DNA of 63,818 nt, filler included, from Kipferlia bialata (taxonomy: Eukaryota), in NCBI GenBank assembly GCA_003568945.1. It is 4 parts of 4 records of this genome, joined end to end, with 100 filler letters (N's around TTAATTAATTAA, not from the genome) between each part and the next. Parts side by side here need not be neighbours in the genome. Positions count along the whole stretch, not along the records: positions 25,963 to 57,951 come from BDIP01000094.1; 3 more parts are not named here. One strand, given 5' to 3'. Shown here in pieces: positions 25,863 to 48,800 of this stretch. The position numbers and the translations under genes were made by a program. Under the pieces are notes generated by a model. The model worked only from the letters and a program-made list of their open reading frames with translations, did not search any database and was not told the DNA's origin. Within the stretch, counting starts at the first letter, position 1. Each line of letters starts with the position of its first letter.

Positions 25863-25962
25863 NNNNNNNNNNNNNNNNNNNNNNNNNNNNNNNNNNNNNN
25901 NNNNNNTTAATTAATTAANNNNNNNNNNNNNNNNNNNNNNNNNNNNNNNNNNNNNNNNNNNN
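25863..25962. other. Artificial assembly spacer (N44-TTAATTAATTAA-N44)
   Basis: 100-nt N block with a 12-mer that gives stops in all six frames; identical at three places. Confidence 0.97.
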
Positions 25963-26232: not shown

Positions 26233-29200
26233 ATGTCACTGGTCGTGTATGACGTGTGTGGCCTTCTTCTACCAGCAATGCCAGCTCCCTTAGTCACACG
26301 ACTGTCTCGACTGCTCCAGGAGTATCCTTCTGTTTCAGTCCTATCCCCTCCAGAGAGAGTCAACCTCTACAAGGAGCTCTGTGGAGTAGCAACCCCTCAT
26401 CAGCTTGCGGCCCACTTCTCGTGTTCCAACCCCACTAGGGACACATTAGCCTTTGTTCGAGGATACCATGCCTACGTTGACCACCGTTGTTCCTGCACTG
26501 AGGTAGTTAGGGCCCCTGCGGATGGGACTGAGGCGGCACCGGCAGTGACAAGTGACCTTCTCATCCTTCAGGTATGACAAGCAAGTTGACTATTCATGAA
26601 TCATCGTACACGGTCTCATTATCCACCCACTGATGCCCAGCCCGCAATCCTAGGTGACAGTGAGGAGGGGCAGACAGTTAGGACGGTCGAGACAACAATG
26701 ATTGAGTCGATATCGACCAAGAGCCTCTCGTCAACAGTACATACCCATAGCAACAGCCTGGGAGACAGGGACGTCACAAGCAGGTTCATAGTGACCCAGC
26801 CGGCAGCGGAGCGTATTGCCATCGTAGAATCTCTCCTTGAGGCTGGATCTGTGCCAGTGTTGCTCGAAGGTACTAAAATGATGATCCTACACGGTATTCA
26901 ATAATCATACATGTCAACTCCTTTGGACATCTTGGGTGGTACTGGGCTACATACAACATAGTTAGACATCACAAGAGTGTCTCTCCTTCTCACTATGACT
27001 AACCCAAGGCCCCACTGGCACAGCCAAGACGTCTACTGTGTGTGAGCTCGCCAGAAGGAAGGGGCAGCGGCTGGAGAGGTTCAATCTCTCGGAACACACA
27101 GCCACAGCCAATCTTCTAGGCCGGATTGAAGTGACGGCCAGTGAAGACAGACCCTTCATGTTCAGAGAGGGGGCATTCACAAAGGTATATCACCATCAGA
27201 AATTGTCACAGTATCACTCGATACCAACCAGGCTGTCTCATGCTCACTCCAGGCATATGAGAAGGGCTACTGGCTGCTCCTGGATGAGCTCAACCTCGGC
27301 GGCCAGGGGGTGCTGCAGTGTCTGGAGGCAGTCCTGGACAACGACATCCTCGCCCTCGACACCCTCGGAACAACACGAGAGATCCCAAGGTATGCGGTGA
27401 TGTACATCCCTCCACCCCACACACAGAACTACACTATTGAGACAGTCCCACCCCAGGCACCCAGACTTCCGTCTCATCTGCACCCAGAACCCATCCTCGG
27501 GGTCCTTCAAGGGCATGCGCCACGAGCTGCCCCCTGAGTTCCTGAGCAGGTTCAGGAAGATCATATTCCCTGACCTAGGTATCAGTAATCGACCTTGATA
27601 GACCTGTTTCCTCTCTACACGATACCATCAATCAATACCTCCTGCCGTCTCCCACCCCAGACCATTCCGAGATGACAGCCATCGTGCAGCACATCCTAGA
27701 GGGCGGCCAGTACCCCAAGGCGAGGGGTATGGCATCCACCCTGGCCTCCTTCCACCAAGATGCAAGTAGGCTCACCTGCGATGGCATTATGACGGTACTC
27801 ACACTGAGGGAGATGAAGCTCTGTGCCGAGATCATTGCACAGAACCACCGTGCCAATGTGGGTGAACTTGTGTACACCGTGTACGGGGCCAGGTACAGTG
27901 CCAATCATGAGGGGATAGCCAGAGCCCTGCTCAAGAACGGATTCCGCAAGGGGCGTGGGGCCATCACTGCTACACTGCCAGTGCCTAGTCTGTCTACAGA
28001 GGATAGAGGCCGGGTTCCAGACTACCTATACCTCACAGCTGGCCTCGAGAGGTCCCTCTCTCTGGGGCTACACGCAGCCAGACAGGGAAGACACGTCCTG
28101 TACTTCGGCAAGAGTGGGTCAGGTACAAGTGACCTCATTCACTCCTATACATCCTCGTACTAGTACCATAACCACCTCTCACTGTAAATGCACCCACCCC
28201 AGGTGTGTCTGCCCTCGCCAGACTGACAGCCCGTCTCTTGGCTGGGGACCGAGACCCCTTCTGTCTCATTGTCACCCCGGACACCACCATAGACGACATT
28301 GTGGGGTATGGGGACTAGTTATAGTGATACAGAGTGTCGAATCCCCCCCCCCATCCCACCACCTCACCACAGCCACATGGTGCCTGCCCATACACGACAC
28401 TCCAGGGACGAGGTGACCCAGCCGAGTATGAAGAGCACAGAGCTGCTGAAGTGGGAGTCCGGTCCGGTACTGGCCGCAGCACAACAGGTGGGGGGACAAA
28501 TACCAGTGTCTCTGCTATACGTGCATCATATCCTCTGACCCCAGGGAGTGGGGTGTGTCCTGGACAACATCAACCAGGGGGAGAGCACCACCCTCGAGAG
28601 ACTCAACCCCCTCCTCGAGACCAACATAGTCCTGGACAGAGAGACCCCAGTGTTCGACGCCTCAGAGTTCTCGGCTGAGAGTCAGGAGCTGGGACCGGGG
28701 TTCCGAATCTTCGCCACTGCTACCCTGGATGACAAGTACGTTTCATGGGACTACACGCTTCAGTACATACACTCGTCCGTCACTCTTTGGACTGACCGAC
28801 TCAACCCTCTCACCCAAGGAAGCTCGCCCTCTCTCCTGCGTTCATCAACAGATTCAGTGTGGTGAGAGTGTGCGACCAGATCGACCTCTCCCACAAGGCC
28901 CAAGCCAAGGCCCAGATCGAGGGTATAGCAAGGGCCACCCTGACCCAGGCCCAGGTCCGTGTGACCATCCCCAAGATACCTAAGGCAAGGGAGGAGGCAC
29001 AGGAGGCAGGTCTATCTGGACCCCAGACACAGTCCAACACCCCACCTGCTACGCCAGCCGAGACCCCTGTCCCCCTCCCCCACGCCGTGTGCGCCATCTC
29101 TGTCCAGAGTGACTCCGAGGGCTCAGAGTATGAGCAGGAGGAGCACACAGACTCAGAGGAGTCAGACAACTCGGAGTCCAGCAGCAGCTCAGAGAGTGAG

Positions 29201-32200
29201 AGTGAGTCAAGTGAGTTTGAGATACCACAGAGTGATGAGGATGGGGCCATGGAGCATGAGAGTCCCATGGTGGGTGGCACTGTAGACCCATCCGACATTG
29301 GAATAGGTCTGGTTGGCATCGGAGGGGAAGAAGAGCCAGAGGAGAGCTCTGAGGACGAGTACGTCATCCCCGTGACCAGACGGCCTGTGGATGAACTGGT
29401 GCCCCTCGTCGTCGAGTGCTTCGGCAAGTTCAGGGCCGAGAACAAGACAGTCAGGAACCTTGTGAATCTGTGCCGCGGGGTGTCTCGACTGGGGGATGTC
29501 ATTGAGGGAGCAGCCCACCTGACTGTCCTGGCCACCATGCTCAGTCCCACTGGCATCAGCAGGGAGTATAGCATCCCAGACGGAGACAGGAAGGTCCTGC
29601 TCGAGTCAGTTGAGGAGGGCTATGAGACTGAGCGGTTCTTCTACAAGGGGGCCGCGAGTGTGGAGTCCCTCGTCTGCATGGTGGCAGGCGTAGACATTGT
29701 GCACAGCCCTCTGCTCATCGAGGGCCCGGCTGGCATTGGCAAGTCAGAGTGCGCCAGGTTCTATGCCAGGGCCAGGAAGGGCAAGAACACACAGCTCATG
29801 TCTCTGACATGCAGTGCAGACACAAGGCCAGAGCACTTCTTCGGCCAGGCCATATCCGCCGGGGGCGGCTTCTCCTTCAGCCCTGGCCCAGCTGTCCTGG
29901 CCATGGAGAGGGGCCACGTGCTGTGTGTGGACGAGCTCAACCTGTGCGCCCCGTCCATCCTCCAGGCCCTGCTCCCAGTGCTGGAGGCACAGCCAGGGGA
30001 GTGCATCCGAATCCCAGGCCGCAGTGAGCCTCTGGCCGTCCACCCCGACTTCGTGTTTGTGGCCACCCAGAACACATTCTCAGGACACGGGAGACAGCGA
30101 CTGCCGCACTCCCTGCTGTCTAGGTTTGTGGTAGCAAGAGCCAACCCCCTCACAGAGCAGCAGTTGACTGCTATTTGCACACGCATCCTGCGCCCCACCC
30201 TTGACACCCTGCCTGACCAACTGACAGCTAAGAGGCTGTCGTCGTTGATCACACAGGCCAACGCACCAGCCTCGGCAAAGAGCAAGCCATACCTGTACCC
30301 ACATGCCTCTCTGACACTAAGGGACATCAGAAGGTGATGACCTGTCACATATTTTACACTATCCTACATGCAAGGACTTGATACACCTAGAACAATCTCT
30401 AACAGCAGGCTACTGAAGCGTCTGGAACACCCCAAGGTGTGGCTGCCGTACCAGGTGTGCACCTTGCTGACCCAGAAGGTATCCCACCGGCTCACAGACA
30501 TCAGACGCAACCTGGTGGATCTCGTTGCCACCTGCTTTGACTGTGACGCAGAGGCCCTGATGAAATACCAGGAGGGAAAGGTGGCAGTCAGTATGGATGC
30601 GACTGGATCTGCCACTCTGACCAAGGGACCAGACACGGCACGTACCAGAACTAGACCGAGACACTATGTGGGACTCAACCTGGTGAACCAGCCCCAGCCC
30701 CTGCTGCAGGCCCTCTACCAGCTGGAGCTGTGTCACGCAGAGGAGAACATCCTCCTGGTAGGCGGTACCAGCTACAAGGGTCTGATCCTGACAGAGATAC
30801 TGAGGTCGAGGGGAAAGGAGGACGTCGAGGACATCTCACTCACAAGAGAGACCACCACAACCCTTCTGGCAGGGTCGCAGACCGTCAACAACCACTCTCG
30901 TGCTATGCTGGTATTCTTGGATCTGCTCCAGGTTGCCGCCCGGCGCCTGGGTGGTCCATTGTGCAAGGTTGCCGCTGAGGCCCACCACCTGGCAGAGACC
31001 ATTCAGAGCAGCACAGGTCTGGACAGGAGCGGGTACGAGGCCATGATCAACCAGGCACACGAGGATGCCACACGCCTACTCGACGAATTCACCAAGGATG
31101 TGGTGTCGGGTCAGAGCGTCGTCGCCTACAAGAATCAGGAGTTCATCGAGAATGCCCTGAACAACGCACTGCGCATAGTCAAGCCCCCATGCAGCCATGA
31201 CAGTGTACCCCAGGCAGACTCGGCGCTGAGGCAGCTCGTGACCATATTCAGCATAGGGCGCTTGACTCGTGCTGCAGTCTTTGGGACCCCCCTCATCCTG
31301 CGCAATGTGGCTCTACCGGCTGCTTCTGTGCTGGAGAGGATGAACCCCCTTCTCGAGATGCCGCCCACCTACACACTGCCCGAGGACGCAGCCTCCACAA
31401 TCACTCAGAACAACGACGCCACAGTCCCAGTCTGTAAAGGGATGAACGTGCATGCCACTGCAACGGAGCGCCAGCTGAACGACCTCTCCCACGCCACCCG
31501 CAGCCGATTCACTGAGATATCGGTAGCGCCATACACGGAGTCTGACGTGCAGCAGGTGGTGCTGGGGGTGGCTGAGGATGTGTTGCAGACCAAGGGGTGC
31601 AGGACTCCGCCAGATACAGTGGCGTCCCTCATCAACTCCAAGGCCCTGCTAGTCCGCCAGGACTCCCACCTGTCACTGAAGCAGGTGCTGTGCTGGACAA
31701 GGCTGGCCGCCTCGCTGGTGAGCACTGGCATGGACGTGCCCACCGCAGTGTCTGTGGCAGGGGTCAAGGCGGTGGCAGACAGAAACAGCAAGAAGTGGTC
31801 AGAGATGGTGAGGCACATGGGCCTCGACACCATCACCCCCGCCCTACAGCAGTATGCCCAGTGGAGACAGAACCCGAAGGCGAACGACACGTTTATGCGG
31901 CAGAGCCTTGAGAAGACCACCCTCAGGTCAGGGCAGCGCGTCACTGCACCCTACTCTGGGGCGAGAATGAGAGCAGCGGCCTCATCTGGGGCATATGACT
32001 TTGACGAGTACACCAAGACGCCTACCCTGCTCTACCTTCTGGATACCATCATAACCTGCGTACAGGCCAACGTCCCTGGTATCCTGAAGGGACCGCCTGG
32101 GCTGGCAAAGAGCAGTGCCTTCGAGGCCATCCAGAGGGCGACAGGCCACAGGGTGACCAGACTCAACCTCTCCAACTCCACCACTGTGGAGGATCTCTTT

Positions 32201-35200
32201 GGGAGGGTGATGTCGAGTCCAGAGGAGGGCGCCATATCATTTGAGGTATAAAACACATCCACTAACATACTTTCACAACTGAAACCACCTCTCTCACCCC
32301 AGTTCCAGAAGGGCGAGCTGACCGATGCCATCGAGTGGACACCTGAGTCTGAGGACAAGGATAGCCTTAGCCCCATCGTGCTACTCGATGAGCTGAACCT
32401 GGCCCCTGCCGCAGTCATTGACGCCATCACGCCTCTGTTTAAGCCAGGGACCAAGCGCCTGCTGCTCCCTAGCGGCAACGTGATGCCACTGAGGCACTTC
32501 CACCTCTTTGCAACTGTGAATCCAGCCTCGTCTTCGTCAGGAAGAGGCGCTCTAGACAGATCCCTGACAGACAACGCAGTCCTAGTGGAACTGCCTTCAT
32601 ACCGGACTCCAGAGGTCGTCGCTATAGCACACGATGTGCTAGGGTGTGTGCCATACTTCCAGACAGAGGGTAGGCTGCAGAGGGCTGTGGAGGCTCACTT
32701 TGCGGCAGGGCAGGTGATGCGGACCACCTCATCAGGCTCAGTGACTCTGAGAGAGCTCATCAAGATGCGGCAGCTGGTAGAGTCCACAAAGTCTTCCCTT
32801 CCACTTGATGTCCTCCTGCGTCTACTCTACGTCTCTCCAGTCCAACAGCCAGAGACTAGAGAGAGACTGACCAGGGAGCTGGGCCTGCGTGTGGCCAATG
32901 CCGACATCCCCAAGGCCATGGTGCACTACAACGACAACACCTACTCTGTTGGGCACCTCAGGCTGGAGAGAGGGCCATACACACAGATGACCTCAGAGTA
33001 CCCTCTCTACGAGACTGTGTCCTCTACCCAGCTACGCTACATGCAGGACGTCACTGCCGCAGTGTGTGCTAGCAGAGTATGTCTGCTGCAGGGCAACTCG
33101 GACTCCGGCAAGACATACATCGTCAGGGCACTGGCCGCCTTATCCGGCCATAAGCTCAACATCGTACAGCTACACACCGACACCGACACCACCAGCATCA
33201 CTGGTAGACTGGAGCCCTGTATGCCCCAGACAGACAGGGTGCGGAGAGTGCTGGAGGAGGTAGAGACTCTGGTGACAAGCCTCACTAGCCGACTAGTGGA
33301 GAAGACACCCCACAAGACCACCACAGAGGTAACTTGGCCTGCATTGCTATCACTGCTGTCTGAACTGTGGTCTACTGAGACAAGTGGTGCTACGGTAGCC
33401 ACCCATCTTGAGACCCTTGTCCACAGCCTGTCGTTCAAGGAGGGCACCGAAGAGGCCACTATTACTCATGCACTAGGGACAGCGGCTGAGGAGCTGGGTA
33501 CACACACCAAGGAGATGTCTATGCGGTTTGAGTACAGGGACTCGCTCCTGATCTCAGCAATGCGCAAGGGAGAGTGGGTCCTCTTTGATAACATCCACGC
33601 AGGTGAGGGTACTGGGAGGGGATACTATGTACTACCATACACTAACTATCACATAACTCAAGCTCAACCCAGCTCCCAACGATGTCGTTGAGCGCCTCAA
33701 CTCCCTTGCTGAGGAGAACCCCACCCTGACAGTGTACGAGCAGGGGACAGGGCACAGATTCAGCATGGATGCCGAGGACCCCAAGTACCGTATATCGCCC
33801 AACTTCCGTCTCTTCCTGACCGCTGACAACTCCCGGTCCTTCCACAGCGGGTCTGTATCGGGCGCCCTACTCTCCAGATGCGTGGTGGTGTCAACCGAGC
33901 CAACGATCATGGAGGGCCTGAGCTGTGTTGGGATCATCTTTGCTCTGCTGCGCCGCCACATTGTGGAAGACACGGCTCGTGAGGTATGGACAGCTATTTC
34001 TGAATCTCTCATAGAGACACTGATGCCAGGTCGCATTCAAGCTCGTGCACGCCTTCCGGTCGATCTGGAAGAGTGAACGGGTACAGTCGACACAGATATC
34101 ATTCAGAACCCTCCTCTTCACAGTTCGTGCCTTCCTCTCTTTGTACCGGTCCAACGCAGACATCGGACAGTGTATGGGGAAGGCTGTGTACCTCGCCCTC
34201 CTGTACAGTAACACAGAGAGGACAGTGGTACAGCCACTAGTGCTGGCTGCAGTATCCAAAAGAGCAACTGAAGTGGAGAGATCCCTTCTGGCTAGTCGGT
34301 TTGGCGACCAGTCCCACAGACTCCTACCCCTGTACAGACGGCTGGCCAGAGTGCAGGCCTCCTTCCTCTGTGGTGTTCCTCAGGAGTTTTTGGCACCATG
34401 TATCAGTATCCTGCTCTCTGGACAGGCCAATGGTCCAGTCCCAAGTGACATACTGCTGTCACAGGTGGCAACAACGGTAGCGAGGGTCCAGATAGCCAAG
34501 GCAACTGTAGCCTCCGTCAAGGCATACACCCACTCCATGCTAGTTGCCATCAGAGACGGAATCAAGGTGGAGGACGGGCCTGAGGTTGTTGCGAGACTTC
34601 GCAAGACATGTACCTTGGCTAGACATGTAACCAGGTCTGCCCCAAAGAAGAGCCCCCAGAGAGATGCCGCAGCCCTTCTCTCCAGCATATACCCCATCGT
34701 AACATGCCTGACCGAGCTGTCAGAGGCGTGCTCTGACGAGCACGGCAGCTTCAGGGTCTCCCAGCTCCTCAACGATCCCTCCGTACCAGCAGAGGTCCAG
34801 TCAGCCGCTGCTAAACTACACACCAGCACCATATGTTTCGAGGCATGCTGGGAGGCCGAAATCCCCGCAATAGCGTTTGACAAGTGGCTTCATGCTCTCT
34901 TTGCGCTCATTGACAAGAAGAACCCACAACGGAATGCATTTGTGAGTGCCGTCCTGGAGTATCTGATCGACCCCTCCAACAGTGAGTTTGGCAGTGACAG
35001 TGAGACAGTGGCCAGGGTCGGTGCAGCACTCAAGGCAGGGTGGCTAGTGGACATGGTGTCCCTGTGCCGGCGCCACCCAGAGTCCGTGGTGCGGCATCCC
35101 TATGTATCCCAGAAGAAGTGCCAGTCGGTGCTGGCTGAGAGTGAGACCCAACCTGGAGCCATCCACATCTTCCTATCCGCCAAGGACGGGATTAAGTGGG

Positions 35201-38200
35201 CAGCCGTCCAGACGACAAGCAGCTATATCACCTGTGACACCCGGCTCTTCACTGAGGCAACACACACCTTCACCCGTCATAAGCCTCAGGACGAGGACGT
35301 GTGTGAGCACATGGTCAAGTGCAACGGGTCCCGGTGGCAGTGGGAGCCCATGGAGTATGACGAGGCCTCGCAGACATACACCCTGACCAAGAGCTATGGG
35401 AGGATAGAGGAGCCTCTCACCGAGCACTTCATCATCAGGAGAAACCGTGACCAATCTGACACCGCTCTGGTACAGGAGTCCATTGGGAAGGTAATTGGTA
35501 GACTATTTACACCTCTCTTGGAATGATGTATTTCAATGTGTCCCATCTGACGGTAGGTATTCGAGGAAGGATGGAGGAAGGACAACGTTGTCGACATCCA
35601 GCCTGTTACAGTGACCCACACCCCACACGTATTCGTGATGCGCCTCCTGGATCTCAAGGTTGAGAGGGAGGAGCTACTGAAGAGTGAAGATGCCACCCTG
35701 GACTACCTGTCCAAGGTGAGGGAGGGCACCCCAACCGAGTCCATGGCTGTTGACGTAGAGCCCCACATCGGGGCCAAGCTGCTCTACTCCAAGATCATCA
35801 CCTGTAAGCCCAACCCCAAGTGGGTACCTCTTGAGTCCCTTGTCTTGAGTAGCCTTTCTCCGGTCAAGAGGGCACTCTGGTCAAGACTCCTGTGCTCTTC
35901 TGGCACTGTAAGGAACACAACCCAGGCCACAGGCGACATCTCAGTCCAGAGCCTCCTGCATGACTGTGTGTGTGCCCTCGTACCTATGCCAGGGATAGAG
36001 TGGGCAGCACACGAGATCCCAGCAGCTGTCATTGTCTCCACTGTCAACAACATCACACAGGAGCTGGAAGAGTATGAGAAGCAGTCCAAGCGAGCTCACA
36101 AGGCAAGGGAGAAGGGGAAGACGGCCAAGATACCAGACCTAGACCAGCTGACAAGCCTAGTGCTGTCCCACACGACAAAGACGGCGGAAGAGGGTATAAC
36201 AGCTGTTAGGACCACATGCAGCGCAGGTGCAACTGCAGGGCTGGTGCAGAATCTTCGTCTTGCATTCGACCGTGTGTTCAGTCGGGTAGCGGCCGTTCCC
36301 ACTCTAAGACCCGTGCAGAGCCTCATGGCCATGGCCACCTGCCTGGATGGGTACGATGAGTATCTGCGGACAGAGCACTCCCGCAGTCAGATGTCCAACG
36401 CCAACAAGAAGCTATGTGCCCAGCTTGACACTGTCAAGGAGGCAGCACAGCGTTTAGGAGTCTCATGTCCAGAGATGAGGCCAGCCCTTGCCTCCCTCTC
36501 ACGTCATATTGAAACAACCTTGTCGACCAACCAGAGTAGCGACGACGCCAAGCACAAGTGGCTGAGCAAGAGGCTACTGGCGGCACAGAGCCTCTATGAG
36601 TCGATAGAGACAGTCTCAGCTCAAGTAGTGTCAGGGGTGTCGAGGGACATTGCTTCAGTGAGTTGGGGGAAGACACTCCCAAGGACACCAGATGGCTACT
36701 CCGCACTGGACGTGCGGGTGCTCACTGTGCAGACACTGGCGCGACACGTGCTGTCGACTGACGTGATCAGAGAGTTGGAGTCAGCGAGACAGAACACATC
36801 ACGGGTCATGGAGCTGCTTCCACAGCTCCGCAAGTCGCCACTTGCAGAGTTGGGAGAGCCACTGTGTGATATTCTCACTGAGAACCACATGCTCTCCAAG
36901 TCACATATCCTAATGCTCTCATCGGCTGCCAATGCAACCACGATATGTGAGCTGCATAGGGCAGGGGCTCCACTAACGTCATCGTCCATGATAGAGTGTG
37001 TCGCCCCCTCTCCCCCTGTCACGGAGGAGTGGGCACACGTTGCATCACAGGAGCTGCTCAAGATACTCCCTCACCCAGAGCGCCACGCCATGTGTGTCCC
37101 TCACTATACGCCAAGAGATGTATTGGCATTGGTCCACCTCAACGCCGGCAGTGACCAGACTCCTATGGCAGGGCCACTGTTCCGCCACACACTGACTGAC
37201 CAAGTTGTGCCTCGGATGAAGTGCCTCAAGGCTGACCTAGCTAAGGGTGTTACGTCCTGTACACAGATGGCAGACAGGATGATCAGTGCAGTGCGGGAGG
37301 AGCTCTATGAGTACACTAGCTCAGCCATATCCGAAGACGTTGGGGATATCGAGGCCCTGACTGGCTACAAGACAGTACCAGACACCTCATTCATGGCAGA
37401 CTTGATTGACGGAGTGCTGGAGGCCAGAGACATAGCCATTGAGCTGGACAAGAACAAGTCCACTCCTGTGTCTGACACTGACACGTCGGACATGGATATA
37501 CTACAGTGTCAGTTCCCCCTCTCTGTGTCTGACACTGTCACATACAGACAGGCCCTGGACATGCAGCCCCATCTGTCTCAGTGGCTATACTACAACACTT
37601 CAGTGAGGGATGGTCTGGCCCAGGCCATCCACCGATGCCACTACCCGGAAGGTACAGTCAGTGCGGCACTCCTGCCATACAGGGTGGCCTGTGGGTGCCA
37701 GCCCACCACTACCACCCACAAGGGTGAGTGGTTCAGAGGCCTGGCCTCCTGGGCACATGCCAGGGTCACCCTCGGCAATGAGTGGCACCACCCAGATGCA
37801 GCCCCACACAGGGTGCCTCTCCTCCTCGGAAAGAGCATACTCCCTGCGGACACATACTGTGACATGGTTGTCAGTGGCGTCGAGCGTATCGACGATGTGG
37901 TTGAGTCCTTGAGACATGAGCTTGGAACCAATGCTAGGGAAAACGCCGTGGGTGACAAAATCGAGTCCATAGTACGCGGTTGCATCTCTGTAGCCCTTCT
38001 CGGTACCCCTCAGGGCGAGACCACCCGGCACCAGCAGATCCACTCTCCCATAGGAGAGATGGCCAACCCCCTGACCCAGCTTGTCAACCTGCAGGGTGTA
38101 TTGGTGGCAGACCTACAGGCCATTCACACAGAGGAACAGCGCAAGTTGAAGGAGAGGAAGAGGACTGCAGAGAAGAGACTTGAGCAGAGCACCGGGGGAA

Positions 38201-41200
38201 TCCGGACTCTGCTGGGAGAGGTTAAGACTGCATACCAGACAGACATATCTGCAATCAAGACCAGGCAGAATGGGGAGCACCAGCGCAGAGTCAACGAGTG
38301 GCTGGCTGACCATAACAGGGTCCAAGTGGCAATTCAACGTACAGCATCTGATAGTAGTGCCTACCAAAGGTCTCTCTCCGTCGTTGCCGAAGCCTATGCA
38401 ACAACCCTTCTACCCAAGCCAGGTGACAAGAGTGCGATGATTGCCATTACTAATGATATTCCACTCCTGTTGAGAGCCTCCGGTGTTCTAAGGGCCGCCG
38501 CCAATACCCTTCCTGCTGGCAAGGTGATCTCCATTCCCCCTGAGTCGAGATGCCATCACTTCGAGGTCACCTGTGACCATGCCCTCACCAATCCTCGACT
38601 GGAGTGCCACTTCACATGCCCCCTCAGGGTAGAGGCAAGAGGGGCAACCACCACCACCACAGACCACTCGACCTCTGCAGGCATCCCTCTTCAGTACACA
38701 CGCCCGGGACACGCAAGGGATGTGGTGGTCACAACAGCCGGAGTGACAGGAGACACCACCTTCACTGTTGCTGTGGCAGGTACTGATGGGGAAGAGCAGA
38801 CAGGTCAGGATGGCTTCTGCCAGCTGACCAGGCTGACTGGCATGGCTGCTATGGGTGCTGTGGGTGTCCGAGAGGCAGCACTCAACAGGGGCCTGGTGCT
38901 GACACACACACAGCTACTCGATGTCGAAGTTCCTAAGCCATTTGGAACCGTGATGTCACTCGCTACGGCGCTCAGTCAACACGAGTCGCAGTATCCACCT
39001 AGCAGACTAAACCAACTGGATGCAGCTTGCCGTGAACACCTAGAGTACCCACCAAGGCCACAGGCCCCTACCACACCGGCTCTTACGGTACTCTCGCACC
39101 CTAGGCAAGAGATTGGCTGCCTACTAGACGCTGATATTACCTACGTCAAACAACGTTCATTGAACCAGAACGCAATGTTCCAGCTGAAACGAGACCTTGT
39201 GGCACTACAGCATGTGTTCAAGAACCTCACAGAGCCACAGACCCAGGCCTTCACTCTCTTCTCTGCTGCGATGCGAGACCATGCACTGGCAATTGATGCA
39301 GCCGTGAAGAACCTTGATGCCGTGTTGGAGTTTGCATCAATCCCCAAGAAGGGCTACAGTGCCATTGTGGCACACTCCCTCTCTCCAGTGCTGCCACCTC
39401 CCACCAAGCCCAGAGGCCTGACGGACTGGCGTTGGACCAACAAGAAGAGGTCCTTCCGGCCAAGCAGCGTGAAGAGGGGAGCTCTGCGCTCTGCCGTTGT
39501 GTCAGATGGGTCTGAGGGTCCCCTTCTGAGCATGCCCCGTGTGATTGCAGACCTTGGGACATACATCATGGGTGTCAACAGCGAGAGACATGTCGGTTCC
39601 CTTACGATCAACAACAGCGCCAAGGAGGATGTGGTCATTACTCTTGCCCTGACTGCTGGGTCCATGCTGGAGGTGTATCCCAAGGAGGTCACTCTACCTA
39701 CACGCAGCACGGCCACCTTTGAGTACAGCCTGACCTCTGACCCAGCCACCGCTGCCCCTATCACCGCAACTGGCTCTATCACTGTGGCATACCCCAATGG
39801 AAAGGGGAAGCAACACACAGTGCCCCTCCTTGTGGGTCTTAGGGTGCAGCCATTCTACGTCAACGTGACCTCATCCGAGCCACTATGTCAGAAACTCGAC
39901 AGCTCCGCCCTGGGGTGCTATGCACCAGACGGCACAGAGGTCAGGCTGGCACTCTCTGTCCCAGAATACCACACCTTCCCGGCGTTTGCAACATCTGTCT
40001 CATCAGGGCCTCGCAACACTGCGCACCAGGGCTGCTTCAAGTTCGGAAGTACAGAGAGGAGTCTGACGCTTGCTGGATATAGCAGAGAGGAGACTAACCT
40101 CAACGCATCCGTCACGGTGTCCTTCTCCCCGACTATACACTTTGACGCAGAGTACTCATCCCACCTGGGCCGGATGGGCACTGATCTCTACCAACTCAGG
40201 CAGTGCAGCAATGGCTCATGGGAGACAGACAGAGTCTCAACGGGTACCACCATCGAAAGGCGGGGCAATGTGAAAGAAGACAGCCTTCACTTTGTCGTTG
40301 TCAACAGATGCGTCCAGGGGGACACATATCGCCTAAGTCTATCTGACTCTCTTGCCTCTAAGACAGCCCTTCGCGGGGGACCCACCAAGAACCTCAGAGT
40401 CGTAGTCCCCCCCGGAGAGGCAGATGTGTTCACGTTGGACCTCAGCTCCAGGAAGCAGCTCTCTGGAGTCCTCTCTGTGACCTTGCACTCAATCAGGTTC
40501 AAGGTACAGTACACTGGAAAGAGATCCCTTGCCATAACCGGCACACGACAGAGACGCCTAGGCCCCTATAATCCACACACGAGAACCTACACCGAAGAGA
40601 ACAGGGACCTCATACGCATCACAAACTCCACACCTGGCCCCTTGTCTAGTCACCGTGGATACTTACTCTTTGTGAGTGAGACCGGTGTTGAAAGACGGAT
40701 CGGGATCAGCTGGGAGAGAATCAATGCCCACAAGCATAATGACTTCCAAGTCAAGGCCACTGACTACGGCACCTACTACCTTGTCTGCTCTGATGACGAA
40801 GATGCAGCCCACAAGAGCCATGTGGTTCACATGAAGAATCCCAACTCTCCACGTCAGGATGTGTGTTTCGACTGCCGTTATTATACGTTTGCCGGGGACA
40901 GACTTGACTCCGGTAGCACGCACACCACCTTCAAGCCCATGCATGTTGAGATTCGGGTGAAGAGATCTTGGAACTCCCCAGAGGTCAAGGGGGTAGTGCC
41001 ACTCTATCTCTTTGACATACCAATGCTCTCATCGGAAGAGCTAGAGGCTATGTCAAGAGTACAGAGGTGTCCTGACTCATTCTGTGTTGCACTGTGCGTC
41101 TCCCTCATTGCAAAGATGCTATTTACGCAAAGCGAGAACCCTTACGGCATACGCCTATTCACACACATGAGCACAGCGCTCACAATGGGGGATATGACTA

Positions 41201-44200
41201 TTCCCACCAGATACGAGTCCACCCTACTCAAGTTCTGCCAGGCAGCTACACTACTTCCCAGGAACAACCCATTCACCCCATCAACACCTTGCAAGGTACC
41301 TGCACTTCCAGACATTGCCACAGACCCCAGTGGGCACGGCCGAGAGTTCACTCGGTTTGTGACAAGTGTACTCCGTAATCTTCCACGCCGACAGATCAAT
41401 GATCGAGAGAGCAGGTTCTCTCACACCTCCTTCATGCTAGGTGTCCTCTCATCCAGAGTGTCAGGGTCGGGTGATATGAGATCCTTTGCCAGAGCATTCG
41501 GGCTCAGTCTTCCTGAGTCCCTCCTCAACCCAACCATCATACACGACAGGGGGGATGGAAGTGAGGTCATTCAGAATCTTGTGCGCAAAACTGACACACT
41601 CCTGAGGGCCCTACACCTGATGAAACAGGCCCAGGAGGTGGTGAAGCTCAGACAGTCATACGGACAACTGAAGATGACCATGCTTCCAAGTGTCCGTGAT
41701 ATGAGCACACTCAGTTCATCAGCACTAGCGTCCAAGAAGGCCGCCATTTTGAACACCACCCACAGCAACACAGGCCCCTCCGACCCACCCTCTAGGGATG
41801 ATGCACTTAGACTTCGGCAGGTTCGAGCAAACATTCAGGACTACAGAAGGATGTCTCAGCGCCAAGCAGACGAGAGCCAGCGCACCTTGGCCGCTCTCAA
41901 CCACTCGGACCCTCACACTGAGTGGGTGCTCAACGCACAGGGCCTCCACCCTGCTGTAGCTGTGAGTGCCCCAGAGGTAGAGGACGTGAACCTCTCTCTG
42001 AAGACTCAGGAGGAAGACTCAGACGCAGTTGCTTCCGACTCCGTCATTGAGACCTACAAGCGAGGTCTGTTGGAGATTGAGAAACTACAGCGAGACACTC
42101 TCGCCTTCCATGCAGCCGTACTCAAGGCGCTAGCCCAGCAGGCATCCATCTTCCCTCTCTGCCTGTCTCAAATGCTGGGGGACCCTAATCTAGCTCTGAG
42201 TGTCCCAGACGTCATTGTGGAGTACTTCAGAGTGGCCATCAGCACCGTCGAGTCTCTCTCACAGAGTGGCCTCTCTTGCTTCAACAACAGGGAGAGGATA
42301 GCAGAGGTGGAGCAGTTCCTTCTCGGTGATGTGGCCTCGAGACTAGCTGAGGCAGAACTCCCCGTCCCCTGCCACTCCACTATCAGACAGGGACACCACT
42401 CCCAGCAGAGACAGAGCGCATTTGTGGTACCTTGTCCAAGAGGCATCGCAAGCCCATGCAACGAGAGCTGGTCCACCAACCCCAAGAACAGCGATGAGGC
42501 ACCCGACCAGTCTCCTGCTGAGCACAACCAAGAAGTACTGGCCCAGATGGGGTCCAAGGTTGATGTCTCTGCACTCCAGTCTCGTATTAACTACAAGCCT
42601 GTGGTAGTCCCCACAACAATCACCCCCAAACGAGAGGAGAGCGACACAGCCACTGCCCTGCGCTCGCTGCAGGAGGCAGACGCAGCCCGCCTAGCAGCAA
42701 ATGCTATTGAGTACACACACATCGACGTCAGCAGACCAGCTGGCATAGGGAGAATGGCAAGGGAACCAGGTGCAAGGAACAGACACAGGCCTGCCATGCA
42801 TCTGAGACGTCTAGGGGACTGGGAGGAGGAGACGGCAGAGGGGTCGGACAATGAGTCCGATGATGTCGAGGATGCCATCAGAGGAGACAGAGACCTAGAC
42901 ATCGACAACCAGCCCCCTACTGTTGAGGCCCAAAGACTGACAGTGGATGAGTATGACAGGCTGTATCCAGAGGACGTCACCCCCGAGCGCATGCTGAGCC
43001 ACCTCTTCAAGCTGAAGCCCCCTATGAGTACCGACATGGCATCAATCGGAAAGATGACCCCAGCATCATTCCCACCAACACTCCACAAGGCAACTGCAGC
43101 CACTCAAGCTCTAATGAACTGCTGTGTGCCTGTTGCAGACAGAATGGTGAGCAAGGTCCTGGTTGGGCTCCCAAGTACTACCTCTCTGGCCTCCCATGAG
43201 GTATGCCTCCTGTTGGACCTGTCAAGGACAGTGGACGACAGAAAGAGAGACATGCAGCATGTCGTGGCCCTCTCTCTCATGGAGGCTCTGTCCAGCCTCG
43301 AGGTCGCCTTCTCAGTCGCAGTCTTCAGCCACAGGGAGTTCTTCTACGTCCTCAAGGACCCCTCGACTGTGTACACAGCAGAGACGGCACAGAGAGTGTG
43401 CGATGCCTTGAGGGTCAAGCGCAAGTCAGCCAGCTATGTACTAGATGCTGTCGCTGCCGCGGCCACACACGTTGCTGGGAAGAGCAACTGTTTCTCTGCT
43501 AGGCCATGCACCGCCCGCTCTATTGTGATAGTGTCTGACCTCTACTCACCACACATTGTGCTTGAAGAGGCAGACTGGGCAATGGTCTTCTCCAAGATTA
43601 ACGCACATGTGGTGTTTGCGCAGCTCGAATCCTCATACAGCGACTCATCTCTCGGAGCCCGCTTCCAAGAGAGAGTCAGTGCAGTGGTTGATAAGGCTGT
43701 CAACACCTCCTCCTCCGCTGAGTTGATAGTCGTGCCTGAGGACGTCATGAGTACAGGGAGTGAGTCAGTGGGACGCATAGACACTATGCTGGTCACCGCA
43801 CTGCACAGCGTACCCATACGCATCGGGTGTCAGAAGAGTGCAGCTCCGGCGCCCAAGGTGCCTCTCAGGAGTGGCCTCGCAGATAGCAACGGGACCACCC
43901 TTGATGCAGTGGGGGCAGACGCCCTCCCCAACATCGCCCTTGGGAGGGGTCAGACAGGCGTATTCTCCCAGGCAGCCACCATTGAGTCCTTGGCTGACGG
44001 TGTTGATATCAACGCCAACATAGAGAGCCATCTCGAGCCGGGTCTGTGCAGTGTGGAACCAGTCTGGGGAGACAGGGTGACACCTCCCAAGCGCAAGGCT
44101 GTGAGTAGAGCCATGGCAGGGATAGCACGCACCACAAGGGCTAGAGTGCAGGCTGCCACCTCGGCTGTAGGCACTACCATCATGCCCCCCAACGTGGCCA

Positions 44201-46647
44201 CGAAGTGGTGTGCGGTGGAGTATGGCACCATCATCGACATCCAGAGGCTGCTGCGGTTCATCATGACCAGAGGCCAGGAGAGGAAGTTCTACCTCTCCAA
44301 GCAGGGTGGGTACAAGCGCATGTACAGCTGCAGTGTGGTCATAGACCTCAGCGACTCCACTATGTGTGCAGCCAACAAGGCACACACCTTCACCAGCGCC
44401 ATTCTGCTGCTCCAGACCCTAGCCATGCTGGAGTTGCCTAGCGTGGATGTCCTCCTATCCACAGGGGCATCGACCCGTGTCCTGGCCTCTGGCATCAGGG
44501 CCAGCGACATGTTCGACAAGACCCACCCCCACCCTCTCTTCCCTGCCCTCTTCTCAGCCATGCAGGAGAGGCACGACGGGGCATCTATGGGGTCAGCAGT
44601 GGGCCATGCAGTGCAGATGCAGGATGTCCGGCCTGCAAGTGGCGGCAACAGCCGCCTGGTATTCGCCCTGACAGATGGGATGGTCTCATCCGACGCTGAG
44701 AGAGCGAGACTCCTCACCGCCCAGAGCTATGCCCGAGCCCACAGCATTGAGGTGATAGGGGTGGGAGTCGGCATGCGGCCTGTGTTCCTAAGCAGAGTAT
44801 ATGCCAGCTGCTGCTTCGCACCCAGCCCATACGACATTGACAGCGCCATCTGCGGTGTCTTCACCCCCTCCGCCCTGACAGGGGATGAGACCATAGAGGA
44901 GGTGTGCCAGGAACTAGCACTAGACCCCCAGACCCTAGAGGCCGTGGATACTACGAGGAAGGAGGCAGCCGCTAACACTGACCTCGTATCGACTCTGAGA
45001 GACCACGTCATCACGGAGGACTTCTACAACCAGAAGTCCCTGAACCTGAGGGCGGAGGATGGCACCTGCAACCCAGACGGGAACGAGTACGACCTTGGCA
45101 AGTGCGGCTACTTCACCGATGTCCACGTGCTTGTGTGCATGTTCTACACATACAGAGACAACAACAAGGACAAGCAGGTCACCCCCGCATGCTTCAACAC
45201 AGGGGCCAAGGGAAGTGACTCCAGTCCACGAATCAAGCTGGAGGAGAAGGGCTTCAGCGTCACAGTGGTGCATGACTACATGACAGCCATCAGAGCCATA
45301 TGCAGCGGCAAGTACAGAGTCACATACGTGGTGTGCAGCCCTGGAGATGGCATTCTCCCCAAGGAGGCAGCTGACCCCAAGAGCTCCAACCTGGTGGGCC
45401 AGTTCACAGACTACCTCATCAGGTGAGGGACATAACCCCCTTGATAGTATATATCAGACCGTCCTAACAACAGGTATTGGAACACAGGGGGCAGCGTGGC
45501 CTTCTTCGCCGACAACGAGCCCTTCTACTACGAGGCCAACCTGTTCCTCGAGAGGGTGCGGTTTGGCACTGAGAGGACAAGACTGCAGCTGACAGGCAAC
45601 TATGTTGGCAAGAAGCAGCTCTCTGAGCGGAAGAGCAGCTCAGCCAGCACTGGCACATTCAATTCTCCCACCAAGGTATACCGAAATACCAAATTGTCCC
45701 TATATGATCCTCTAACGACTCAGGTGAAAGTAGAGGGACGCCACTACACGAGGGCCACCTTAAGCGCTGGTCTGCGTTCCATCTATGAGGGCCACACTGT
45801 GTGTTACCCTAAGCCCGGACCCATCGCTCCCTTTGAGGCCTTTGCATACAACAGCAACACAGAGAGTGAGCAGCCGACCATTCTGACCTATGACCCCCCC
45901 TGCACCTCCTCCACAGGCACCATTGTGGTGGACACTGCAGCCTCCAGGCTGTTCTATGAGTACAGTGCAGAGGGCACGGCCCGGTACATATCCAACATCG
46001 CCGTGTGGTCACTGAGGCTGGCCCACCTGAGGCACGAGCTGGACCTACAGGATATCACACGCCCCCTCCCAGCCATCACAGTCAGAATCGACCAGACAGT
46101 CAAGTGGACATGGCCCACACCAGTGTCCAGACCCGTGCACCACATACTGATACTGGATGACAGTGGGAGCATGAGTGGGAGCTGGGCCAGCCTTATGAAG
46201 GCTGTCAACAACTTCCAGACGACCAGAGCAAAGTCCAGCCCTCAGGACAGGTGGACAATCATCAAGTTCAGTGTTGACGCCACAGCAGTGTGTGTCAACG
46301 AACCGATCACAACGGTCCCATCCATCAGCTTCGGTTGTGGTGGAAATACCAATCTACACCTGGCAACCCGAGAGTGTGATGCCAAGAAGGGGTCATACCC
46401 GTCGTCACACACCACTCGTGTCCTCTGCTTCACTGACGGAGGAACCAATGGGAAGGAGGAGTGTCTCGCATGGGCTACCAAGGTACACTCTCCTCCAATC
46501 AACTGGACCGTGGATGCCATTGGGTTTGCATCAGCACCCCCCGAGTTCATGTCCTCTCTGGCCCGGAATGGGGGAGGGCAGTACGCATTTGCAAGAACCC
46601 CCGAGGAACTCACCTCTCACTTTGAGGAGTTTGCCATGGCTGACTGA
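26233..46647 (+). CDS. Giant midasin/MDN1-like AAA+ protein (six AAA modules, long linker, three vWA domains, GATase-like module), ~6,429 aa
   Basis: Exons 26233-26571, 26641-26869, 27009-27184, 27253-27389, 27457-27578, 27661-28122, 28203-28305, 28373-28487, 28545-28735, 28819-30333, 30409-32245, 32303-33602, 33673-33983, 34030-35490, 35557-45422, 45474-45675, 45724-46647 sum to 19,290 nt, and every splice phase is consistent. Midasin-type motifs: LLEGPTGTAKT, FREGAFTKAYEKGYWLLLDELNL, HPDFRLICTQNP, GPAGIGKS..VDELNL, FEYRDSLLISAMRKGEWVLFDNIHAAPNDVVERLNSLAE, and the pre-MIDAS motif IMPPNVATKW..IDIQRLLRFI..KFYLSKQGGYKRMYSCSVVIDLSDS. Confidence 0.9.
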
Positions 46648-47153
46648 GAGTGAGGATAGGATTCAGGCAGAAAGAATACACAATAATAGACTCAATCCAA
46701 AAAGAGAATGATGTCAGCCATGTTAGAAACTACATCTGAATATAAAGAGTACACAGCGAAACAGAACTATAACATAAATATGAACATACAAATACATATA
46801 CCACAGAGAACTATCAAGGCAAGTGAGAACAGAACACAAAATCTCACCTATGTTCGTGACCGATGGACGTTCATACGGTGTGATTGACTCACAGAGTGAG
46901 AGTGACGTGTCACCGCATACGCAAAACATGTGTTCTGTGCTCCCAGTATCTCAAGCATCGTAGAGTCTAAAGACAGAGGAGAGCAGAGTCTGCCGCATCA
47001 GCTGCTTGTGATCAGGGGGTGTAGGACAAAAACGCATTCAATTGGTGGCAACACCTGTCGCAGTGCTGCCACTTTCTACCCATGCCCATTACGCTCCCTA
47101 TCCGGTATTCCGCCAACATCCAGTGTGGTGGTCAATGCCGGCAGAATCTTAGT

Positions 47154-47889: not shown

Positions 47890-48630
47890 CTAGGCATACT
47901 TGCGAGTCCACTCCCTGGCAGTTGCCAGGTACCGCTGGTAGTCTCTCTTGTACAGGTTGGCAGCTGGGGTGGACTTACAAGATGGATGGATAGTGTGAAG
48001 GACATGTGTATATGTTATGTATATATGACAAGGGGATCTGGTCAGTACCTACAGCCGAGAGGGGGTCGTCTGCATTGGCATCACTGAGCAGAGAGGTGAG
48101 GGAGAGGAGCACCTTGGAGATGGAGAGGACAGGTGACCAGGCCTCCTGGAGGGGAGTGACATAATTTTGGAATATAGGAGGGATTATTGTATGGATAGTA
48201 TACAGAGTGAGGGTGAAGGGGGGGGAGGGGGGACATGCTACCTTCAGGATGTCGAGGCAGATGGCCCCGCTCTCACTGATGTTGGGGTGGAACACCTTGT
48301 TGATGAAGCGGAGCTGGGGGGGCTGGGGGTGAGGAGGTATCACATATGAGAGGTACATACACGACATAAATGCACCTTGAATGGATAGTCATGGGAGAAT
48401 GTGATGGAGAGGCGGAACACTCCTCCCTCATATGGAGAGGATGGGGGACCCATGATGCTAGCCGTCCAGTGGTATAGGTCCGACTCATCGTTGGGGCCTG
48501 CACTCACTGGTGTTAGAATAGGGAATCGTAGACAAACAACACCCAAAGAGGTCGATTGCCCTACTATACCTAGGGCAACGGGTTCCCTGTGTAAGTCCCG
48601 CAGTTCCTTGGCCAACCGCCTCGCAGACAT
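47890..48630 (-). CDS. Ubiquitin-conjugating enzyme E2, Ubc4/UBE2D-like (5 exons)
   Basis: Spliced product [150 protein letters not shown] motif and catalytic Cys are present. Confidence 0.95.
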
Positions 48631-48800
48631 GTCGATGGCTGAGAGAGGTCGGCATGTCTCAGCTCTGCCAGTACTGTAGGGTAGTGAGTACTTTACAGTG
48701 TGATCTGTTTTGTCTGGGTTTGACTGAGGGGTTCAGCCACACAGAGTGTCTCGCTTCTCTGTACACACCTCTGAAACCTGAGTATCTAGTAACCCATACC
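48631..48800. promoter_or_regulatory. Probable compact bidirectional promoter (170 bp) between the E2 and SGF29-like genes
   Basis: Divergent ATGs at 48630 (-) and 48801 (+). Inferred from geometry only. Confidence 0.55.

What the first reader, a model, noticed from the sequence alone, without database searches (positions are those of the whole stretch)
26850..34130. AAA ring has alternating live/dead ATPase sites, with matching loss of one arginine finger
Seen, Walker A / Walker B / R-finger / sensor II: D1 GPTGTAKT / LLLDE / LSRF / LRE; D2 GKSGSGVS (no Lys) / VLDN / INRF / VRN; D3 GPAGIGKS / CVDE / LSRF / LRD; D4 GGTSYKG / LILRN / RSRF / LKQ; D5 GPPGLAKS / VLLDE / LTDNA (no Arg) / LRE; D6 GNSDSGKT / LFDN / LSRC / FRT. 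Only D1, D3 and D5 keep the catalytic Glu. Established: in concatenated dynein/midasin rings the R-finger of module n+1 completes site n, and canonical Rea1/Mdn1 relies on sites 2-5. Inference: D2, D4 and D6 keep the fingers needed by the three live sites, while D5 lost the finger that would serve the fully dead D4 site. That gives a pseudo-three-fold motor unlike canonical midasin.
Basis: partly seen in the sequence, partly recalled or inferred. Interest (0 to 1): 0.8.

Follow-up and report, generated by a model that had tools for sequence, protein, structure and literature searches.

The report
Midasin cousin with alternating ATPase sites
This giant protist gene belongs to a widespread family of midasin relatives, mislabelled in databases, whose six-part ATPase ring keeps its catalytic residues only in parts 1, 3 and 5, so it likely works as a three-site engine on some job other than ribosome assembly.

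Summary
The region is the six-module AAA+ ring of a 16-exon, 6,445-residue gene (database record KIPB_000761, Kipferlia bialata). It is not an MDN1 orthologue. It groups with 34 other database proteins (named ones from metamonads, an amoebozoan, a stramenopile, green algae and a rotifer), apart from 170 true midasins, among them the fornicate Carpediemonas MDN1, which is canonical.

In the family the catalytic Glu is kept in D1, D3 and D5 (24/26, 30/32, 33/35) and never in D2, D4 or D6 (0/29, 0/35, 0/30). Fingers serving live sites are invariant (94/94); the D5 finger survives in 1/35. Complete rings read +-+-+- in 18 of 23, against -++++- in 110 of 111 midasins.

Corrections: sites 2 and 6 usually keep Lys and finger, so they likely bind ATP without hydrolysing it. 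Only site 4 is empty. The D2 Lys loss is nearly private, and the inserts are not three-fold.

Activity, ring geometry and client are inferred. The scan noted bacterial midasin-like giants before, but no look-alike of this family.

The parts
26233..46647 (+). Whole gene: 16 exons, 15 GT-AG introns of 46-139 nt, 6,445 aa; equals database protein P0057 (GIQ80035.1, KIPB_000761)
26824..27917 (+). AAA module D1 (about aa 175-420): Lys196, Asp-Glu 259-260, sensor I Asn305, finger Arg325, sensor II; predicted live site 1
28062..29584 (+). AAA module D2 (about aa 469-880): Val for Lys at 490, DN Walker B, Thr at sensor I, finger Arg636 kept, no helix-2 plug insert; an acidic insert (29042-29344) lies before its lid
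29678..30559 (+). AAA module D3 (about aa 912-1180): Lys933, Glu997, Asn1043, finger Arg1060; predicted live site 3
   Evidence: (AAA_5 E 6e-20)
30716..31819 (+). AAA module D4 (about aa 1233-1600): P-loop one residue short, RN Walker B, Thr at sensor I, Lys at sensor II, own finger Arg1496 invariant; predicted empty site; still folds as a MoxR-type AAA+ domain
30887..31177 (+). Predicted four-helix insert in the helix-2 hairpin of D4 (aa 1290-1386)
   Evidence: helices 162-256 of the model between strands 155-161 and 276-282
32045..32926 (+). AAA module D5 (about aa 1676-1950): Lys1697, Glu1772, Asn1815; Asn1833 (codon at 32573) stands where midasins have the arginine finger; predicted live site 5
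33047..34212 (+). AAA module D6 (about aa 1991-2340): Lys2012, DN Walker B as in midasin, finger Arg2244
34213..43185 (+). About 3,000-residue linker with no Pfam family and no match to a profile of the MDN1 linker
43186..43758 (+). VWA-like domain 1 (LLLDLSRT at aa 5317)
   Evidence: tandem VWA also in P0111
44176..44898 (+). VWA domain 2 of midasin-MIDAS type (VVIDLSDS at aa 5693, with the MIDAS-like N-terminal extension)
   Evidence: MIDAS profile E 7.9e-5; VWA E 1.6e-5; only PDB hit midasin MIDAS 6qt8, weak, E 0.72
45076..45999 (+). Conserved domain shared with P0119, P0101 and P0106; likely glutamine-amidotransferase-like (GIFT/DUF4350-like) fold
   Evidence: lead only; fold model unusable
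46132..46644 (+). C-terminal VWA domain 3 (ILDDSGSM, DxSxS intact)

Best explanation
The gene encodes a member of a midasin-related eukaryotic family whose single-chain six-module AAA+ ring keeps a full catalytic set only at sites 1, 3 and 5, and which likely acts as a three-site, VWA-coupled remodelling engine on a client other than the pre-ribosome. Shown in sequence: the 1/3/5 pattern, invariant fingers in D2, D4 and D6, loss of the D5 finger, a stripped D4 site, no AAA2 plug, tandem VWA domains. From established AAA+ geometry (finger of module n+1 completes site n; PMC5116814): hydrolysis would occur at the D1|D2, D3|D4 and D5|D6 interfaces. Inferred: sites 2 and 6 bind ATP as a clamp without hydrolysing it (site 2 probably not in this species, which lost the Lys), and site 4 is nucleotide-free, so the ring would move as three two-module blocks (D2-D3, D4-D5, D6-D1) hinged at three live sites. 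Inferred by analogy with Rea1 and NorQ-NorD: ring motion would act on a client held by the MIDAS-type VWA domain, with the D4 helical insert as a candidate regulator in place of the missing AAA2 plug.
For: Census over 35 family rings and 120 six-module midasins: Walker B Glu in family D1-D6 = 24/26, 0/29, 30/32, 0/35, 33/35, 0/30; in MDN1 0/120, 120/120, 119/120, 120/120, 120/120, at most 3/120. Fingers in family R1-R6 = 22/26, 29/29, 24/32, 35/35, 1/35, 30/30; in MDN1 4, 107, 120, 120, 120, 119 of 120. Sensor I Asn in family = 26/26, 2/29, 31/32, 2/35, 29/35, 21/30. D4 also has a P-loop one residue short in 33/35 and sensor II Arg in only 10/35, against 25/29, 23/29, 30/35, 30/30, 25/30 in D1, D2, D3, D5, D6. 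Whole rings: 18 of 23 are +-+-+-, 110 of 111 MDN1 are -++++-. Ring trees split family from MDN1 with support 100; Carpediemonas MDN1 sits with MDN1 while the Kipferlia and Aduncisulcus proteins sit in the family. Each module of this protein groups with the same-numbered family modules. D4 still folds as an AAA+ domain (NorQ Z 15.8, rmsd 3.9, 211 aligned). MIDAS-type VWA present.
Against: No activity, structure or client data. The fold tool gave no coordinates, so finger-to-site contacts were not measured. 5 of 23 complete rings depart from the pattern: 4 have EE or DG in D5 and 1 (Bryopsis P0166) has no DE at all, so three live sites are not obligatory. Sensor I is kept in D6 (21/30 Asn). A ring with few live sites can be a switch and not a motor, as argued for RNF213 (PMC7311170). 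Only 5 of the family proteins searched gave a hit to the MIDAS profile; many are partial, but several long ones (P0081, P0140, P0060, P0130, P0166) gave none. A canonical MDN1 from Kipferlia itself was not among the 120 best rows listed of 1,328, so same-genome paralogy is not shown. In the one run that covers the gene, 14 of 15 introns are retained in the contigs.
Confidence: 0.58

Rival explanations
1. Same family and same 1/3/5 pattern, but the ring is a regulated conformational switch or sensor (as proposed for RNF213), likely in defence or stress signalling, and not a force-producing remodeller.
For: Regions outside the ring diverge fast: few post-ring matches among members. Members are giant (5,000-7,750 aa) with N-terminal extensions of 25 to about 960 residues. 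One member lost all DE motifs and four lost the canonical D5 motif. The C-terminal domain resembles clusters from rotifers and Myxococcota (lead). RNF213 has two live sites, one ATP-glue site and low activity (PMC7311170, passages read).
Against: Three complete sites with invariant trans fingers are kept across 31% median identity. No RING or other effector family was found by Pfam in this protein. A MIDAS-type VWA points to the MoxR/midasin chaperone mode.
Confidence: 0.25
2. The even sites are not dead: DN/DQ sites 2 and 6 hydrolyse slowly, and the swapped 'ED' Walker B common in D4 is active, so the ring is a graded six-site machine.
For: Family D2 and D6 keep Lys (27/29, 30/30), the first Asp (27/29, 28/30), sensor II (23/29, 25/30) and mostly the facing finger. 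D4 keeps a Lys in 32/35 and has ED in most non-metamonad members. Drg1/Rix7 D1 tolerate loss of the Glu (PMC3264779, passage).
Against: No member has the catalytic Glu in D2, D4 or D6 (0 of 94 modules). D4 loses five elements at once (P-loop length, Walker B, sensor I, sensor II, facing finger). This protein has RN in D4 and no Lys in D2. Mdn1 site 6 with DN is treated as binding-only (PMC5116814, PMC6286127).
Confidence: 0.1
3. This is the organism's own, very divergent MDN1/Rea1 orthologue working in 60S assembly.
For: UniRef names it Midasin. Best PDB sequence hits are Mdn1/Rea1. Six modules, DN in D6, a MIDAS-like VWA. No Kipferlia MDN1 was seen among the listed rows.
Against: Lacks the essential sites 2 and 4 and finger R5 (PMC5116814), the AAA2 insert (70 against 176 residues), the linker match and the D/E-rich tail (2 acidic windows against 10 in S. 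pombe). The fornicate Carpediemonas has a canonical MDN1 that is 37% identical to fungal midasins, while this ring is at most 24% identical to any of 25 midasins.
Confidence: 0.05

Closest known systems
Midasin (Rea1/Mdn1/MDN1)
   Same: Six fused AAA_5-type modules with odd/even alternation, DN in D6, shared D5 and D4 sequence signatures, long linker and a MIDAS-type VWA domain.
   Different: Live sites 1/3/5 instead of 2-5; D1 intact with its finger; D4 stripped; D5 finger lost; no AAA2 helix-2 plug but a large D4 insert; no detectable linker homology; no long D/E tail; two or three VWA domains plus a further conserved domain.
RNF213 (mysterin)
   Same: Giant single-chain six-AAA ring with a mix of live, ATP-glue and empty sites (PMC7311170, passages read).
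   Different: RNF213 is live at AAA3 and AAA4 only and carries an E3 module; this family is live at 1/3/5, carries VWA domains and is closer in sequence to midasin (RNF213 was not among the 5 PDB hits).
MoxR AAA+/VWA chaperone pairs (NorQ-NorD, CbbQ-CbbO)
   Same: Best fold matches of D4; AAA+ ring coupled to a VWA domain (PMC13036017, abstract; PMC7159879, passages).
   Different: Those are homohexamers of equal subunits with a separate VWA protein; here all is one chain with unequal sites.
MCM8-9 helicase (analogy only)
   Same: A hexamer with two alternating interfaces, one of which supplies most of the power (PMC11055865, abstract).
   Different: A trimer of heterodimers acting on DNA; not a fused ring and not of the midasin lineage.

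Membership tests
Midasin (MDN1/Rea1) orthologues | Six tandem AAA+ modules in one chain | tested here: met
Midasin (MDN1/Rea1) orthologues | Complete catalytic sites AAA2-AAA5 (Walker A, Walker B DE, fingers R3-R6; PMC5116814) | tested here: not met
   D2 VDN, D4 RN, R5 = Asn
Midasin (MDN1/Rea1) orthologues | Degenerate AAA1 Walker B and missing R1 finger | tested here: not met
   D1 has LLLDE and Arg325; family 24/26 and 22/26, MDN1 0/120 and 4/120
Midasin (MDN1/Rea1) orthologues | DN Walker B in AAA6 | tested here: met
   LFDN; MDN1 Asn in 97/120
Midasin (MDN1/Rea1) orthologues | Autoinhibitory AAA2 helix-2 alpha insert (PMC6286127) | tested here: not met
   Walker A to B spacing 81 aa in this D2; profile-hit spacing median 70 in the family against 176 in MDN1
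Midasin (MDN1/Rea1) orthologues | Homologous helical linker | tested here: not met
   profile of 38 MDN1 linkers (first 1,500 residues after D6) gave no hit in 37 family proteins
Midasin (MDN1/Rea1) orthologues | Long D/E-rich region before one terminal MIDAS domain | tested here: not met
   one short acidic window before VWA1; three VWA domains, the MIDAS-like one internal
Midasin (MDN1/Rea1) orthologues | Groups with MDN1 in a tree | tested here: not met
   split from MDN1, support 100 in two unrooted trees
Midasin (MDN1/Rea1) orthologues | Releases Rsa4/Ytm1 from pre-60S particles | not testable with these tools
   needs experiment
MoxR/dynein-midasin clade of AAA+ proteins | AAA_5-type modules with helix-2 insert | tested here: met
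   Pfam AAA_5; model and fold matches to NorQ, CbbQ, Rea1, dynein
MoxR/dynein-midasin clade of AAA+ proteins | Coupling to a VWA domain (PMC7159879) | tested here: met
Dynein heavy chain (NCBI label of members P0059 and P0130) | Dynein-specific stalk, linker and tail families | tested here: not met
   Pfam on 11 family proteins shows only P-loop cross-hits among the rows listed, best family AAA_5; none in this protein
RNF213 | Live sites at AAA3 and AAA4; AAA1 without Walker motifs | tested here: not met
   D1 intact, D4 stripped
RNF213 | RING/E3 module | tested here: inconclusive
   no Pfam hit in the stretches scanned, but about 3,000 residues remain unassigned

The most novel reading that the evidence does not exclude
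Eukaryotes have a second, ancient midasin-type machine, hidden under the labels 'midasin' and 'dynein heavy chain', that forms its own class of fused six-module AAA+ ring and runs on three alternating sites. Its live/dead alternation may preserve the state of a two-module ancestor that was tripled to build these rings; the module trees neither show nor reject an independent triplication (p-AU 0.76 and 0.30).
Probability: 0.35. Interest if true: 0.8.

Novelty: new variant of a known kind. Interest (0 to 1): 0.63.

Why it matters
Midasin is treated as a single essential ribosome factor whose ring needs sites 2-5. A sister family spread over at least four eukaryotic supergroups, with the same chassis rewired to sites 1/3/5, shows how far a fused AAA+ ring can be re-tuned. 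It gives a natural test of the open question of how many sites, and in what order, such rings need. The coupled loss of four cis elements in D4 and the trans finger in D5 is an evolutionary check on the finger geometry. It also flags database mislabels (Midasin, Dynein heavy chain) that can mislead ribosome-biogenesis and dynein inventories in protists and rotifers.

Tried and rejected
No whole genome was held, so a Kipferlia MDN1 could not be sought directly; a search with Carpediemonas MDN1 listed 120 of 1,328 hits, none named Kipferlia. A word search with exon 11 found only true midasins, 56 of 56; one with the VWA region found nothing among 2,541 scored candidates. The family appeared only in the HMMER search, of which the best 150 of 898 rows were seen, so its size and range are lower bounds.

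Whether prokaryotes hold the family is open: the genome scan could not be run with the alignment. Ring duplication versus independent triplication is unresolved: the free tree joins family and MDN1 modules for D3 and D5 (support 92 each), but none of the seven constraints tried was rejected. The circular-permutation idea (family D4 = MDN1 D1, both with ED) was rejected: family D4 is an even-type module. The fold model of the C-terminal domain was unusable (pLDDT 36.6) and was not searched. No RNA holder was listed for the gene; runs X2 and X3 laid nothing. Fisher tests are not used, since members share ancestry.

Literature: searches midasin+Walker B+arginine finger (11 papers), midasin+Garbarino+Giardia (6), midasin-like+AAA+von Willebrand (0), midasin+paralog+protist (7), midasin+RNF213+MoxR (0), alternating/inactive AAA terms (8), Kipferlia+midasin (0), midasin/vWA/expansion/immunity (17), VWA8+Walker (29) and odd/even terms (off-topic) showed no description of this family in listings or in the passages read. 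Garbarino and Gibbons 2002 was not held and PMC8195603 did not load; supplements were not read, and either could bear on novelty.
Full report
1. The observation. The interval lies in a eukaryotic gene on the + strand. Fifteen GT-AG introns of 46-139 nt join 16 exons (26233-46647) into one open frame of 6,445 residues. It is 99.75% identical to database protein P0057, named KIPB_000761 of Kipferlia bialata and labelled 'Midasin' by UniRef. Pfam gives AAA_5 for the ring exons and VWA for the tail; the only PDB sequence hits of exon 12 are Mdn1/Rea1.

2. What is established for midasin. In S. pombe Mdn1 the finger of module n+1 completes site n, sites 2-5 must hydrolyse, site 6 must bind ATP, and B1, B6 and R1 are not conserved (PMC5116814, passages). 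Rea1 structures agree and show an autoinhibitory helical insert in AAA2 (PMC6286127, passages; reviews PMC6920918 and PMC3264779, passages). That midasin's odd and even modules form two groups I recall from Garbarino and Gibbons 2002, which I could not read; my module tree shows the same split with support 99.

3. A separate family. A HMMER search with exon 11 gave 898 proteins, of which 150 were listed. With the 56 proteins this made 205 distinct proteins: P0057 itself, 170 canonical midasins and 34 proteins of another type. The sorting used Walker A spelling and scores to midasin-derived profiles, and was then checked by trees. Cluster mates P0206-P0208 were left out of the counts. Ring trees separate the family from MDN1 with support 100 (57 rows, FastTree; 30 rows, IQ-TREE mixture model; both unrooted, long branches flagged). 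Each of the modules of this protein groups with the same-numbered family modules. Of 22 family proteins looked up, 8 carry an organism name: Kipferlia, Aduncisulcus paluster, Tritrichomonas foetus, Pelomyxa schiedti, Hondaea fermentalgiana, Rotaria sp., Mesostigma viride and Bryopsis sp. (lineages of Kipferlia, Aduncisulcus, Pelomyxa and Hondaea, the others from my own knowledge). NCBI labels two of them 'Dynein heavy chain'. Median pairwise identity over ring cores is 31%, so these are not near-copies.

4. P0070 is the midasin of Carpediemonas membranifera, a fornicate like Kipferlia. It keeps DE in D2-D5, groups with MDN1 and is 37% identical to its best fungal hit. All 50 partial midasins also keep DE in the D2-D5 modules that the pattern could read. 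So bona fide MDN1 in a related protist does not show the 1/3/5 pattern. A Kipferlia MDN1 was not seen among the 120 listed rows, so same-genome paralogy remains unshown.

5. Motif census (35 family rings including this one, 120 six-module midasins; denominators are the rows that hold the module). Catalytic Glu, D1-D6: family 24/26, 0/29, 30/32, 0/35, 33/35, 0/30; MDN1 0, 120, 119, 120, 120 and at most 3 of 120. Arginine fingers R1-R6: family 22/26, 29/29, 24/32, 35/35, 1/35, 30/30; MDN1 4, 107, 120, 120, 120, 119 of 120. Sensor II Arg: 25/29, 23/29, 30/35, 10/35, 30/30, 25/30. The D4 P-loop is one residue short in 33 of 35 and in none of 120 midasins. Scored as Lys plus DE, 18 of 23 complete family rings read +-+-+-, 4 read +-+--- and 1 has no site; 110 of 111 midasins read -++++-. 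Finger retention thus falls in three steps: invariant towards live sites (94 of 94), mostly kept towards sites 2 and 6 (46 of 58), lost towards site 4 (1 of 35). These counts reflect shared ancestry, not independent events.

6. Walker A Lys is kept in family D2 in 27 of 29 and in D6 in 30 of 30; its loss in D2 is shared only with P0089. Sites 2 and 6 therefore look like ATP-binding, non-hydrolysing sites, as described for RNF213 AAA2 (PMC7311170, passages) and Mdn1 AAA6; only site 4 looks empty. The inserts break the symmetry: the D2 insert is missing (spacing 70 against 176), D4 has the largest (median 352 against 129) and D6 a medium one (183 against 155). A model of exon 11 (mean pLDDT 65.8, D4 core about 80-90) shows D4 as an intact AAA+ domain with four helices in its helix-2 hairpin, matching NorQ, CbbQ, Rea1 and dynein folds. 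No coordinates were returned, so contacts across sites were not measured.

7. The rest of the protein. After the ring come about 3,000 residues with no Pfam family and no match to an MDN1 linker profile, and no long D/E tail. Then follow two VWA domains, the second of MIDAS type (profile E 7.9e-5; sole PDB hit the midasin MIDAS, weak), a domain shared with three relatives that resembles glutamine-amidotransferase-like folds (lead only; fold failed) and a third VWA. Mesostigma P0111 also has two VWA domains; only 5 of 37 family proteins hit the MIDAS profile, many being partial.

8. Mechanism. Most likely (0.58): hydrolysis at D1|D2, D3|D4 and D5|D6 moves three clamped two-module blocks and acts on a client held by the VWA domain, as in Rea1 and NorQ-NorD (PMC13036017, abstract; PMC7159879, passages). 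MCM8-9 offers an analogy of unequal alternating interfaces (PMC11055865, abstract). Rivals: a regulated switch like RNF213 (0.25), slow hydrolysis at even sites (0.10), a divergent true MDN1 (0.05). The motif pattern and the family are shown; geometry rests on established knowledge; block motion, client and role are inference.

9. Origin. The free module tree joins family and MDN1 modules for D3 and D5 (92 each), which fits duplication of a whole ring, but constraints for independent triplication were not rejected (p-AU 0.76 even, 0.30 odd). Unresolved.

10. Novelty. Ten paper searches showed no description of this family. [quoted passage not shown] PMC3495828 (passages) names only dynein and midasin as descendants of the six-module ancestor. 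Subscription papers and supplements were not seen. The scan's notes hold bacterial midasin-like giants but no look-alike of this sequence. Verdict: a real, conserved feature; a new variant of the midasin/MoxR-VWA kind; interest 0.63.

Noticed in passing
window 27575-27638 and 46644-46847 (- strand): Contigs of run X1 (kind not on record, same sample) skip two minus-strand introns with canonical signals, one of them inside a 19,053-base contig spanning 27637-46960, while 14 of the 15 plus-strand introns are retained; only 28306-28372 is skipped. The neighbouring spliced gene has depth 7.6 against 34 here. This hints at a long spliced antisense RNA over the giant gene, or at unspliced pre-mRNA; contigs cannot show strand or level.
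   Followed up: partly
window 47975-48732 (- strand): Intron-split gene whose translation looks like a ubiquitin-conjugating (E2) enzyme (label recalled from the motifs, no family search); three minus-strand joints are seen in X1.
   Followed up: no
window 48654-49334 (+ strand): ORF with an SGF29 tudor-like domain (Pfam E 6e-14).
   Followed up: no
window 25863-25962: A scaffold gap lies 270 bases upstream of the start codon; many family members have 670-960 extra N-terminal residues, though four close relatives have under 40, so a lost 5' part cannot be excluded.
   Followed up: partly
window 29042-29344: An acidic, serine-rich insert of about 200 residues separates the D2 core from its lid; P0089 has an insert of similar length there.
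   Followed up: no
P0166 (Bryopsis sp.): A family member with no DE Walker B in any of its six modules but with fingers R1-R4 and R6 kept; possibly a fully inactive ring.
   Followed up: no
window 45076-45999: Unnamed conserved domain (DLGK...YWNTGG...YEG) whose nearest feature clusters are from rotifers and Myxococcota and GIFT/DUF4350-like proteins.
   Followed up: partly
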